This document shows positions 32,686-34,270 of a stretch of DNA of 64,000 nucleotides, in pieces; the stretch's first letter is position 1; every line of letters starts with the position of its first letter. The notes under the pieces are model-generated. The model had not been told where the DNA came from. It did not search any database and saw only the letters and a program-made list of their open reading frames with translations. Location: assembly GCA_964383745.1 (NCBI GenBank), contig CAYLHV010000005.1:21033-85032 (forward strand), read 5' to 3'. The stretch comes from an uncultured Rickettsiales bacterium (lineage in GTDB: Bacteria > Pseudomonadota > Alphaproteobacteria > Rickettsiales > CAYLHV01). Made by a program: the position numbers and the translations under genes.

Positions 32686-32753
32686 GACTTGTAATAACAT
32701 TTGAAATAGCATATATTCACTCGAGTAAATAACCAATTTCCAGGAAGTCTTAA

Positions 32754-32875
32754 TTGTCAAATCTCGAAAATAGCACAGCAAAAGAAATTTTAGCCGTAAC
32801 TCAAAAAAAAACTTCAATTTCCGCAGTTTAAATTTTAAACCTAATGATCTGAAAAAAATCATCTCTCTTTGTTTC
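32754..32875 (+). other. Probable 5' extension of tlc: TTG start with SD, separated from the tlc frame by an A9 tract (32803-32811)
   Basis: AGGAAG (32742-32747) lies 6 nt before TTG 32754, which opens MSNLENSTAKEILAVTQKK in frame 0. After the A9 run the tlc frame reads NFNFRSLNFKPNDLKKIISLCF with no start codon of its own (open from 32774). A -1 shift in the A run joins the two frames. Confidence 0.5.
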
Positions 32876-34270
32876 ATGATCATTCTTGCCAGTTTTGTTG
32901 CAAATGTCTTGCGCGCCACGAAAGATGCTTTGGTGATTCCGCTGATGGGTGCTGAAGTGATCAGCACTTTAAAGCTCTATGCAGTTGTTCCTGCCGCCCT
33001 AATTTTCATTATTTTTTATTCCAAAATTTCAAACATATTACATCGCGACAAAGTTTTCACGGCAGTCATTGGTTTCTTTCTTGCTTTTTTGCTGATTTTC
33101 AATTTTTTCTTATATCCCAACGCAAATTCTCTTCAAGCTGATTTTTCTGACATATCTGCAAAATATCCAGCTTTCAAATGGCCTCTTTTGGTAGTTGGTA
33201 ATTGGATTTTCTCTTTATTTTACGTGATTGCCGACATGTGTGGCAACATCATGATCTATGTGCTGTTTTTTAGACTAGCAAATGAAATTAACACTGTCGA
33301 TGAAGCAAAAAAATATTATGCTTTTTTCATCATGATTGGTCATTTGGGACATATTTCTTCTGGCCTGACAGTTTCTTTCGTTTCAAGTTCATTCATTAAC
33401 TCCGCTCAAGCCCATGGTCAAGAATCTTGGGATGAAGCAATGAGAATTTTCATTTTGATTGTGTCTGCTGCTTTAATACTCAAAATTTTCCTACATAATT
33501 GGATTTTAAAAAATGTCACAAGACCTTCAAGAGCACTTGCAGAACAAGCGGAATCTATGGAAAAACCTAAAATCAGCCTGATGCAAAGCCTAAAGCTTGT
33601 TTTTTCTTCAAAATATATCGGACTAATTGCAGCCATGATCATGTGCTATGGCGTTTCAATTAACATTGTTGAAAGCGTTTGGAAAAGCCAAGTCAGAATT
33701 GAATATCCCACAAATAATGAATATAATTTCTTCATGGGGCAAATTCAGACCTATGGCGGCATGTTTTACATCATTGTTGCATTTTTCGCGCTCATCATCA
33801 TCAGAAAATTTAGTTGGCGTTTTTGCGCATTAATTCTACCAGTGGTGATTTTTATCACAGGTTTCCTTTTCTTTGCTTTGACCATTTTCCAAGGCACCAT
33901 GGATCAGCTTTTGCTCTATTTTTCTGTGAGCTCTTGTGCGCTTGCTGTTTTTGTTGGTGCCATGCAAAATGTGCTAAGCAAATCAGTTAAATATGCAATT
34001 TTCGATACAACCAAGGAAATGGCATATATTCCCCTTGATGAGAATTTAAAAACTCAAGGAAAAGCAGCCTCTGACCTTTTGGGCCACAAAATCGGAAAAT
34101 CTGGAGGGGCTTTCATTCAGTGGCTTTTGCTGACCATCATCCCTGATTCAACTTTACTGAGTCTGTCACAATATTTCTTCGTAATTTTCATCATTGTGGG
34201 AATTTTATGGTTTTACACAGTTTTTGAACTTGATAAAGAATTCCGCGCTCGCTTGCAATCAGATTTGTAG
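32876..34270 (+). CDS. tlc: ATP/ADP translocase (NTT family nucleotide transporter)
   Basis: 464 aa from the first ATG, polytopic. LRATKDALVIPLMGAEVISTLKLYAVVPAA and DTTKEMAYIPLD..KTQGKAA are typical Tlc/NTT motifs. The true N-terminus probably lies upstream (see the feature at 32754). Confidence 0.85.
   Translation: MIILASFVANVLRATKDALVIPLMGAEVISTLKLYAVVPAALIFIIFYSKISNILHRDKVFTAVIGFFLAFLLIFNFFLYPNANSLQADFSDISAKYPAFKWPLLVVGNWIFSLFYVIADMCGNIMIYVLFFRLANEINTVDEAKKYYAFFIMIGHLGHISSGLTVSFVSSSFINSAQAHGQESWDEAMRIFILIVSAALILKIFLHNWILKNVTRPSRALAEQAESMEKPKISLMQSLKLVFSSKYIGLIAAMIMCYGVSINIVESVWKSQVRIEYPTNNEYNFFMGQIQTYGGMFYIIVAFFALIIIRKFSWRFCALILPVVIFITGFLFFALTIFQGTMDQLLLYFSVSSCALAVFVGAMQNVLSKSVKYAIFDTTKEMAYIPLDENLKTQGKAASDLLGHKIGKSGGAFIQWLLLTIIPDSTLLSLSQYFFVIFIIVGILWFYTVFELDKEFRARLQSDL

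What the first reader, a model, noticed from the sequence alone, without database searches (positions are those of the whole stretch)
32742..32878. tlc (ATP/ADP translocase) lacks an in-frame start for its conserved N-terminus; an A9 tract links it to an upstream TTG/SD start
The tlc reading frame is open from 32774. It encodes NFNFRSLNFKPNDLKKIISLCF upstream of the first ATG (32876), which resembles the conserved N-terminal ..R....P...ELKK.. region of NTT transporters. That stretch contains no ATG, GTG or TTG. In the adjacent frame a TTG at 32754, with an AGGAAG SD 6 nt upstream, opens MSNLENSTAKEILAVTQKK and runs into a run of nine A (32803-32811). A -1 shift, or one extra A, in that run fuses the two frames. 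The options are a homopolymer sequencing error, an early pseudogenising lesion, or expression rescued by transcriptional or ribosomal slippage. Such slippage has been described for long poly(A) tracts in AT-rich endosymbionts.
Basis: partly seen in the sequence, partly recalled or inferred. Interest (0 to 1): 0.55.

Follow-up and report, generated by a model that had tools for sequence, protein, structure and literature searches.

The report
Poly(A) frameshift splits tlc gene start
A nucleotide-transporter (tlc) gene of an uncultured intracellular alphaproteobacterium is cut off from its real start codon because a run of A's is one base short, a familiar kind of lesion in endosymbionts that can be partly bypassed when the RNA polymerase or the ribosome slips on the run.

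Summary
An A9 run (32803-32811) separates a 19-codon head from the tlc body. The head has an AGGAAG Shine-Dalgarno (SD, ribosome-binding) site, 6 nt, then TTG 32754. The body is open from 32774, and its first ATG (32876) lies in the middle of transmembrane helix 1. One extra A gives a 505-aa protein. The closest homologue (62% identical) reads in one frame through the same spot: ACT CAG AAA AAA AAC (ITQKKN), against ACT CAA AAA AAA [A]AC here. So the ancestral frame crossed the tract, and the window is one A short of A10. An independent Logan assembly of run SRR15237806 is identical, with A9. Thirteen 8-mers and 41 7-mers lie in intact ORFs, so an assembly error is less likely, though not excluded. 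The gene shows no copy-specific decay: 8 of its 9 departures from conserved columns are shared with the intact homologue. The same genome probably carries at least two more tlc paralogues. The most likely reading is a real, recent or tolerated 1-nt deletion. Full-length protein would then come only from +1A transcriptional slippage or a -1 ribosomal shift on A_AAA_AAA. Both give the same product. This is a known kind of event, of modest interest. The deposited 464-aa gene model is N-terminally truncated.

The parts
32689..32717 (+). Promoter-like site TTGTAA-17-TATATT in the 68-nt spacer between the ankyrin-repeat gene and the TTG start. Weak evidence.
   Evidence: The site matches 9 of 12 positions. 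The region had 9 such sites against 6.4 expected, so this is only compatible with a promoter, not evidence for one.
32742..32747 (+). Shine-Dalgarno-like AGGAAG, 6 nt upstream of TTG 32754.
   Evidence: for the sequence. In one search an SD core occurs upstream of 16 of 49 gene starts against 7% of random 15-nt windows. ATG 32876 has none. Gene 1004-1567(-) uses the same AAGGAAG with a 6-nt spacer.
32754..32831 (+). Head reading frame as encoded: TTG start, (M)SNLENSTAKEILAVTQKK, then out-of-frame TSISAV and TAA. The first 19 codons are the true N-terminus of Tlc.
   Evidence: for the translation. TAA 32751-32753 lies directly upstream, so TTG is the only canonical start in this frame. The motif ...TQKK aligns with ITQKK of P0001.
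32803..32811 (+). A9 tract, the site of the frame break. A10 (or A7, A13) would be in frame.
   Evidence: The homologous DNA in L001 is CAG AAA AAA AAC, a G followed by A8, in frame.
32804..32810 (+). A_AAA_AAA heptamer in the TTG frame, a potential -1 ribosomal slip site. A -1 shift reads AAC next, giving ...TQKKNFNF..., the same product as an A10 transcript.
   Evidence: Read directly from the sequence. Motif class is described in PMC4066793. No stimulatory downstream structure was found (z = -1.36).
32774..34270 (+). tlc/NTT body frame, open stop-to-stop. Codons 32810-32875 encode the conserved N-terminal segment NFNFRSLNFKPNDLKKIISLCF with no ATG, GTG or TTG.
   Evidence: The Pfam TLC match begins 13 residues before the ATG. 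Alignments A2 and the 120-sequence set agree.
32876..34270 (+). The 464-aa ORF from the first ATG, which is the gene model in the public record (P0121). This Met is residue 42 of the fused protein and lies inside transmembrane helix 1 (hydrophobic peak at residues 35-53).
   Evidence: There is no SD upstream.

Best explanation
This is one paralogue of the TLC/NTT nucleotide-transporter family in an uncultured Rickettsiales-like intracellular alphaproteobacterium. Its ancestral reading frame ran from TTG 32754, with an AGGAAG SD, through a 5'-proximal Lys-Lys-Asn poly(A) run to the stop at 34270. That frame is 505 codons with A10.

The genome copy has lost one A (A10 to A9). This is a replication-slippage deletion in a tract that a synonymous CAG/CAA difference had made longer than in the nearest homologue.

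Standard decoding therefore yields a 25-residue peptide. Full-length Tlc can arise in two ways: (i) from the fraction of transcripts in which RNA polymerase slips back and adds one A, which is the favoured direction of slippage in A/T runs and is appreciable at 9 or more bases; or (ii) from a -1 ribosomal shift on A_AAA_AAA. Both give the identical protein ...AVTQKKNFNFRSL....

Expression is thus expected to be leaky and reduced rather than absent. The lesion is either young or tolerated because of this leak and because other tlc paralogues exist.

Shown here: the anatomy, the homology across the tract, the reproducibility of A9 in a second assembly, and the lack of decay. Inferred: that A9 is the true genomic state, that slippage occurs in this organism, and that the product is still used.
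For: - Homology spans the junction. P0001 (62% identical) reads ITQKKN in one frame, with DNA ACT CAG AAA AAA AAC. The window has ACT CAA AAA AAA AC.
- The Pfam TLC match starts 13 residues upstream of ATG 32876.
- 115 of 120 homologues have at least 16 residues upstream of that Met, with a median of 32. Of the five exceptions, the three traced to DNA are start-calling or contig-end artefacts. The other two were not checked.
- The Met lies in the middle of the first hydrophobic segment, residues 35-53.
- TTG 32754 has an SD at 6 nt and ATG 32876 has none. The SD core is enriched at gene starts: 16 of 49 against a 7% background.
- Logan contig L003 from SRR15237806 is 100% identical to window 32218-34400, including A9.
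- No other homopolymer-linked frameshift exists in the window. All other candidate junctions are borders between different complete genes. Thirteen A8/T8 and 41 A7/T7 tracts sit in intact ORFs.
- There is no copy-specific decay. The window protein deviates at 9 of 84 columns that are at least 90% conserved. Eight of those nine are shared with intact P0001, which itself deviates at 10.
- Literature. Frameshifted endosymbiont genes with long poly(A) runs yield 12-50% corrected transcripts, and runs of 9 A or T slip in bacteria (PMC5009743). Single-base insertions dominate in A/T runs and rise exponentially with run length (PMC5574713). Blochmannia genes with single homopolymer indels are otherwise intact (PMC3017870).
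Against: - There are no read pile-ups, no RNA and no protein data.
- The two assemblies very probably use the same reads, so a systematic read-level miscall is not excluded.
- The frameshift is not shared with the only informative relative. No closer relative exists in any collection searched, so conservation of the frameshift, the hallmark of selected slippage rescue, cannot be shown.
- The genome is only moderately AT-rich (36% GC). The window holds just one coding 9-mer, unlike the Buchnera and Blochmannia genomes where the phenomenon was demonstrated.
- No -1 frameshift stimulator was found.
- Paralogues probably exist in the same genome. L002 has a tandem pair, comes from the same run, and has tetranucleotide r = 0.966 to the window. 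Loss of this copy may simply be tolerated.
Confidence: 0.5

Rival explanations
1. Nascent pseudogene. The A9 state is real, but this tlc paralogue is no longer needed. Slippage products are irrelevant noise, and the gene is at the first step of erosion.
For: - Homopolymer indels are described as key first events of gene inactivation in endosymbionts (PMC3017870).
- The same genome probably encodes at least two further tlc paralogues in tandem (L002) and perhaps a fourth (L006).
- The closest homologue is in frame, so the frameshift is lineage-specific.
Against: - The gene has no second lesion. The body is open for 485 codons after the tract, the TTG, SD and head frame are intact, and only one private, conservative departure (F113L) occurs at conserved columns.
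- This fits only a very recent event. It cannot be told apart from rescue with the data at hand.
- NTT paralogues in Rickettsia and chlamydiae usually differ in substrate (my knowledge of the family), so paralogy does not imply redundancy.
Confidence: 0.27
2. Sequencing or consensus error. The organism really has A10 and an ordinary 505-aa tlc. Only the annotation, a 464-aa model from ATG 32876, is wrong.
For: - The gene is otherwise perfect, as an error would predict.
- The broken tract is the longest coding homopolymer in the window, and miscalls rise with run length.
- The record is a metagenome-derived contig from a single run. The Logan contig here is only 2.2 kb, and coverage is unknown.
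Against: - An independent k-mer assembler (Logan) gives exactly A9.
- None of 54 coding A/T runs of 7-8 bases is frameshifted, which argues against a homopolymer-error-prone data type.
Confidence: 0.15
3. Contingency or dose switch. The 5'-proximal A9/A10 tract is kept by selection as a reversible ON/OFF or throttling device for this transporter. The symbiont population would then be a mixture of tract lengths.
For: - Poly(A) tracts are preferentially placed at 5' ends of prokaryotic genes. The 5' poly(A) of Listeria inlA switches frame at about 1000 times the point-mutation frequency, giving an 8-aa product (PMC2831843).
- Here the tract sits at codons 17-20, and the nearest homologue also has a long run (A8) at the same place.
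Against: - No tract-length polymorphism is visible. Only a single contig path exists in each of two assemblies.
- The run is explained simply by Lys-Lys-Asn codons in an AT-rich genome.
- As far as I know, phase variation of NTT transporters has not been reported.
Confidence: 0.05
4. The gene starts downstream of the tract, either at ATG 32876 or at a non-canonical start in the tlc frame (CTG 32849, ATC 32858/32861). No recoding would then be needed.
For: The deposited gene model uses ATG 32876 (P0121). Reinitiation after the TAA at 32829 is conceivable, since the ATG lies 45 nt downstream.
Against: - ATG 32876 has no SD and lies inside transmembrane helix 1. None of the homologues traced to DNA truly starts there.
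- No SD-like sequence precedes CTG 32849 or the ATC codons.
- This start would leave the homology of the TTG-frame head (…TQKK) unexplained.
Confidence: 0.03

Closest known systems
Poly(A)-tract frameshifts in insect endosymbionts (Buchnera aphidicola, Blochmannia spp.) corrected by transcriptional slippage (Tamas et al. 2008, as summarised in PMC5009743 and PMC3017870)
   Same: A single-base indel inside a sense-strand poly(A) run of 9 or more. The gene is otherwise intact. The host is an obligately intracellular bacterium. An added A in the transcript restores the frame.
   Different: The genome is much less AT-rich (36% GC), with a single coding 9-mer in 64 kb. The lineage is Rickettsiales-like, not gammaproteobacterial. 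The frameshift lies at the extreme 5' end, codon 19-20. Neither conservation of the frameshift nor transcript heterogeneity has been shown here.
Listeria monocytogenes inlA 5' poly(A) homopolymeric tract (PMC2831843)
   Same: A 5'-proximal poly(A) run whose one-base length change yields a very short peptide instead of the full protein. The change is reversible by replication slippage.
   Different: For inlA, both tract states are observed among strains and switching frequencies were measured. Here only one state, in one sample, is known. The protein is a cytoplasmic-membrane transporter, not a surface virulence factor.
Programmed -1 ribosomal frameshifting on A_AAA_AAN heptamers (dnaX, IS elements; PMC4066793, PMC5009743)
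   Same: A perfect A_AAA_AAA heptamer lies in the zero (TTG) frame, and a -1 shift gives the homologous protein.
   Different: No downstream stem-loop and no upstream internal SD stimulator were found. The motif is not conserved in the relative as a frameshift. The shift would have to be the main route of expression rather than produce a second product.
Transcriptional slippage at A9/T9 runs in Thermus thermophilus dnaX and Shigella flexneri mxiE/spa genes (cited in PMC5009743; details from my own knowledge)
   Same: The run length, 9, is the length at which bacterial RNA polymerases slip productively. The outcome is a mixed mRNA pool.
   Different: Those cases are conserved, programmed sites that produce defined product ratios. 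Here the site looks like an accident in one lineage.

Membership tests
TLC/NTT nucleotide transporters (Pfam PF03219; TIGR00769; TC 2.A.12) | Significant full-length match to the family profiles, above the curated cut-offs | tested here: met
   PF03219 gives 457.8 bits (cut-off 21) over residues 29-497 against profile positions 19-491 of 491. TIGR00769 gives 415.4 bits (cut-off 387.2).
TLC/NTT nucleotide transporters (Pfam PF03219; TIGR00769; TC 2.A.12) | Conserved N-terminal segment (..E/D-L-K-K-x-I/L-P..) followed by a complete first transmembrane helix | tested here: met
   Met only in the fused reading: NDLKKIISLCFMIILASFVANVL. The 464-aa ATG model lacks the motif and half of the helix.
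TLC/NTT nucleotide transporters (Pfam PF03219; TIGR00769; TC 2.A.12) | About 12 transmembrane helices | tested here: inconclusive
   A Kyte-Doolittle scan gives about 10 strong hydrophobic peaks plus weaker ones. No dedicated topology predictor was available.
TLC/NTT nucleotide transporters (Pfam PF03219; TIGR00769; TC 2.A.12) | ATP/ADP counter-exchange, the specific 'ATP/ADP translocase' activity | not testable with these tools
   The paralogues differ widely (53%, 49% and 48% identity to P0002, P0003 and P0004). The clade replaces several family-conserved residues, for example AELWGS becomes ADMCGN.
Slippage-rescued homopolymer frameshift genes of endosymbionts | Single indel located inside an A or T run of 9 or more bases | tested here: met
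   A9 at 32803-32811. One added A restores the homologous frame.
Slippage-rescued homopolymer frameshift genes of endosymbionts | Gene otherwise intact, with no elevated decay | tested here: met
   The body is open for 485 codons after the tract. Eight of nine departures at conserved columns are shared with the intact homologue.
Slippage-rescued homopolymer frameshift genes of endosymbionts | Frameshift conserved among diverged strains or species | tested here: inconclusive
   The only informative relative (62% identical, no shared synteny) is in frame. No closer relative was found in any collection.
Slippage-rescued homopolymer frameshift genes of endosymbionts | Mixed mRNA pool with corrected transcripts, and full-length protein | not testable with these tools
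   Needs cDNA deep sequencing and proteomics.
Programmed -1 ribosomal frameshift sites | X_XXY_YYZ slippery heptamer in the zero frame | tested here: met
   A_AAA_AAA at 32804-32810 in the TTG frame.
Programmed -1 ribosomal frameshift sites | Stimulatory element: a downstream stem-loop or pseudoknot, or an upstream SD-like sequence | tested here: not met
   The fold of 32800-32900 gives -11 kcal/mol, z = -1.36, and 15 of 200 shuffles fold as well. No GGAG or AGGA lies in the 20 nt before the heptamer.
Phase-variable contingency loci | Tract-length polymorphism within or between populations | not testable with these tools
   Only one sample carries this sequence.

The most novel reading that the evidence does not exclude
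The frameshifted A9 tract is not an accident but a maintained throttle or switch. In this Rickettsiales-like endosymbiont, one nucleotide-transporter paralogue would be expressed only through polymerase or ribosome slippage, or through heritable A9/A10 switching. That would set a low or variable dose of host-nucleotide import. It would be the first such control reported for an energy-parasitism gene, and it would extend slippage-dependent expression beyond the extremely AT-rich insect symbionts.
Probability: 0.07. Interest if true: 0.6.

Novelty: new member of a known kind. Interest (0 to 1): 0.3.

Why it matters
- Annotation: the public gene model (464 aa from ATG 32876) is N-terminally truncated. 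It should be either a 505-aa gene with a noted frameshift or slippage site, or a pseudogene.
- Biology: tlc/NTT transporters are the core of nucleotide and energy parasitism in Rickettsiales, Holosporales-like bacteria and chlamydiae. Whether a paralogue is on, off or leaky affects metabolic reconstruction of this uncultured symbiont.
- Wider point: if the A9 state is real and the gene is still used, slippage rescue of homopolymer frameshifts would operate in a moderately AT-rich (36% GC) alphaproteobacterial symbiont, not only in Buchnera-type genomes.
- None of this would surprise a specialist.

Tried and rejected
1. I looked for the same or a closely related genome to see the tract state elsewhere. 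A protein-pattern scan and a DNA-pattern scan of genome contigs and of metagenome contigs all returned nothing. A paper search for SRR15237806 also returned nothing.
2. The window's own 464-aa protein did not appear in the homology search. It is clustered under an unrelated 57-aa representative, P0122. Following P0122 led to unrelated contigs L004 and L005, a dead end.
3. Five homologues seemed to start at the internal Met, which would support the ATG start. P0004 is the same gene as the 493-aa P0126, which has a TTG start. P0064 is cut by a contig end. P0097 has an in-frame ATG 20 codons upstream. P0079 and P0101 were not traced. This support for the ATG start is rejected.
4. Other homopolymer frameshifts in the window would have pointed to a systematic error signature or genome-wide slippage dependence. 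The 17 candidate junctions from the frame scan are ordinary gene borders. The large ones are all different complete genes by Pfam.
5. I looked for stimulators of -1 ribosomal frameshifting. There is no significant structure and no internal SD.
6. I tested synteny between L001 and the window to establish orthology of P0001. The flanking genes are unrelated, so P0001 is called the closest homologue, not a proven orthologue.
7. Non-canonical starts in the tlc frame (CTG 32849, ATC 32858/32861) have no SD and are rejected as unlikely.
8. The look-up of P0004's NCBI contig failed.
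Full report
**Anatomy**

The window is 36.4% G+C.

- An AGGAAG motif (32742-32747) lies 6 nt before TTG 32754. That TTG directly follows an in-frame TAA (32751-32753).
- The TTG frame reads (M)SNLENSTAKEILAVTQKK, enters a run of nine A (32803-32811), continues as TSISAV and stops at TAA 32829-32831.
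- The frame displaced by -1 is open from 32774. It reads ...NSKKNFNFRSLNFKPNDLKKIISLCF, with no ATG, GTG or TTG before ATG 32876, and continues to 34270.
- One extra A in the run gives a single 505-codon ORF.
- The A9 is the only A run of 9 or more in the window.

All statements in the finding are therefore correct.

**What the gene is**

The fused protein is a TLC/NTT nucleotide transporter. Pfam PF03219 gives 457.8 bits over residues 29-497, and TIGR00769 gives 415.4 bits against a cut-off of 387.2. The Pfam match begins 13 residues upstream of the ATG-encoded Met, which is residue 42 of the fusion. That Met sits in the middle of the first hydrophobic segment, residues 35-53, KIISLCFMIILASFVANVL. 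A protein started at ATG 32876 would lack the conserved D/E-L-K-K motif and about half of transmembrane helix 1.

**Homology across the tract**

The closest protein among 5.8 billion clusters is P0001 (62% identity, a Logan contig of SRR29699992). It begins MQKDYSSITQKKNPFSAILDIQKYELKKIIPLCLMIILA. Its DNA reads ATT ACT CAG AAA AAA AAC CCA in one frame. The window reads GTA ACT CAA AAA AAA AC TTC. The motif T-Q-K-K-N is thus shared, but in the window T-Q-K-K is in the TTG frame and N onward is in the tlc frame. The window tract is exactly one A short of the in-frame A10. The CAG/CAA synonymous difference makes the potential run A10 here, against A8 in the relative.

In a MAFFT alignment of the 120 best homologues, the median number of residues upstream of the column of Met42 is 32. 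Only five sequences have five or fewer.

- P0004 (461 aa, NCBI) is the same gene as the 493-aa P0126, which starts at a TTG 32 codons upstream.
- P0064 is cut by a contig end.
- P0097 has an in-frame ATG 20 codons upstream that encodes ...PIRKKEISCF....
- P0079 and P0101 sit on contigs of 1545 and 1628 bp and were not traced.

**Start signals**

An SD core (GGAG, GAGG or AGGA) occurs 4-18 nt upstream of 16 of 49 long-ORF starts, against 7% of random 15-nt windows. ATG 32876 has none, and TTG 32754 has AGGAAG at 6 nt. A weak promoter-like site, TTGTAA-17-TATATT, lies at 32689-32717 in the 68-nt spacer after the ankyrin-repeat gene. Such matches are not enriched in this region.

**Is A9 real?**

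The 464-aa ATG ORF is on record from NCBI (a contig of 95,655 bp) and from Logan. The Logan contig L003, from run SRR15237806, is 100% identical to window 32218-34400, including A9.

A scan of all homopolymers for frame junctions gave 17 candidates. Apart from the tlc site they are ordinary borders between genes. The large ones are different complete genes by Pfam. Thirteen A8/T8 and 41 A7/T7 tracts lie inside intact ORFs. The only coding 9-mer is the broken one. The assembly is therefore not generally prone to homopolymer errors.

Two caveats remain. The two assemblies almost certainly share the same reads. The broken tract is also the longest one, where errors are most likely. I put the error explanation at about 0.15.

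**Decay test**

At the 84 alignment columns conserved in at least 90% of homologues, the window protein deviates at nine. Intact P0001 deviates at ten, and P0004 and P0005 at nine and ten. Eight of the window's nine deviations are identical in P0001. The single private one is F113L. There is no second lesion. The frameshift is therefore very recent, or tolerated or compensated, or not real.

**Genomic context and organism**

- Neighbours are MipZ (31396-32304), a small ankyrin-repeat protein (32311-32685), an ABC ATPase on the minus strand (34444-35202), a ChpT-like phosphotransferase, and fumarase C.
- A run of minus-strand ORFs (about 14095-31176) looks like a nuo (NADH dehydrogenase) operon. 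NuoA and NuoD are confirmed.
- Apart from the window's own entry, the best NuoD matches are 83-86% identical. The named ones include a Rickettsiales endosymbiont of Stachyamoeba lipophora and Rickettsiales MAGs.
- The same run yields contig L002, with two tandem tlc paralogues (P0002 and P0003, 53% and 49% identical). Its tetranucleotide signature matches the window as well as the window matches itself: r = 0.966, against 0.93-0.96 for 11-kb window chunks.
- L006 carries a further paralogue (r = 0.86).

The organism thus probably has at least three tlc genes.

**Mechanism**

If A9 is the genomic state, the unshifted product is a 25-residue peptide. Two known processes produce the full-length protein, and both give ...AVTQKKNFNFRSL....

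1. Backward slippage of RNA polymerase can add one A. Single-base insertions dominate in A/T runs and rise exponentially with run length in E. coli and Buchnera (PMC5574713). Runs of 9 A or T slip in bacteria, and frameshifted endosymbiont genes yield 12-50% corrected transcripts (PMC5009743). Blochmannia genomes carry four to eight such genes that are otherwise intact (PMC3017870).
2. A -1 ribosomal shift can occur on A_AAA_AAA (32804-32810 in the TTG frame). I found no stimulator for it: the fold of 32800-32900 has z = -1.36, and there is no internal SD. AAAAAAA motifs are avoided in E. coli genes, attributed to possible transcriptional slippage or high indel mutation rates (PMC4066793).

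Transcriptional slippage is therefore the more likely route. Whether the leak is used by the cell, or is just noise on a dying paralogue, cannot be decided. No closer relative exists in any collection, so conservation of the frameshift cannot be tested. The nearest homologue shares no flanking genes.

**Verdict**

- The most likely explanation is a real one-A deletion in a 5'-proximal A10 run of one tlc paralogue, with leaky full-length expression by slippage (0.5).
- The rivals are a nascent pseudogene (0.27), a consensus error (0.15), a maintained switch (0.05), and a downstream start (0.03).
- This is a new instance of a well-described phenomenon. It has practical value for annotation and modest scientific interest.

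Noticed in passing
L006:3001-3099 (same run SRR15237806): Another tlc paralogue is recorded in NCBI as a 461-aa protein (P0004) starting at the Met inside helix 1. A TTG 32 codons upstream (P0126, 493 aa) restores the conserved N-terminus. Start-calling at TTG-initiated tlc genes seems to be systematically too short in this dataset.
   Followed up: partly
L002:2931-7316: Two tandem tlc paralogues (510 and 496 aa) are followed by an MFS transporter, on a contig from the same run. Its tetranucleotide signature matches the window (r = 0.966), so the organism probably has at least three NTT transporters.
   Followed up: partly
L007:1442-1500: In an unrelated, very AT-rich contig (21% GC), the tlc homologue P0097 was called from an internal ATG. 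The likely true start is ATG 1442, followed directly by a T9 run (ATG TTT TTT TTT = MFFF). This is another long homopolymer at the 5' end of a tlc gene.
   Followed up: partly
protein collection, cluster of P0121: The window's 464-aa Tlc is filed in a 90% cluster whose representative is an unrelated 57-aa protein (P0122). This hid the window's own protein from the homology search. It is a clustering artefact.
   Followed up: yes
window 49574-49582: The only other 9-base homopolymer (T9) lies in the 52-nt spacer between convergent ORFs 48903-49532(+) and 49585-50187(-). It may be part of a terminator.
   Followed up: no
window 42634-42656: ORFs for an AEC/Mem_trans-type transporter (41724-42656) and an MFS transporter (42634-43926) overlap by 23 nt around a T7 run. 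Both have complete domains, so this is a gene border and not a frameshift. The TTG start of the second ORF is probably called too far upstream.
   Followed up: yes
window 14095-32685 and 35290-36033: A run of minus-strand ORFs that looks like a nuo operon (NuoA and NuoD confirmed) is followed by MipZ and a 124-aa ankyrin-repeat protein directly upstream of tlc. A ChpT-like histidine phosphotransferase lies downstream. These are alphaproteobacterial cell-cycle markers next to a typical symbiont effector-like gene.
   Followed up: partly
window 59199-62827: A small HATPase_c_2 protein is followed by a 1042-aa hybrid histidine kinase with several PAS domains, two receiver domains and an Hpt domain. 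That is a large sensory protein for a presumed obligate intracellular bacterium.
   Followed up: no
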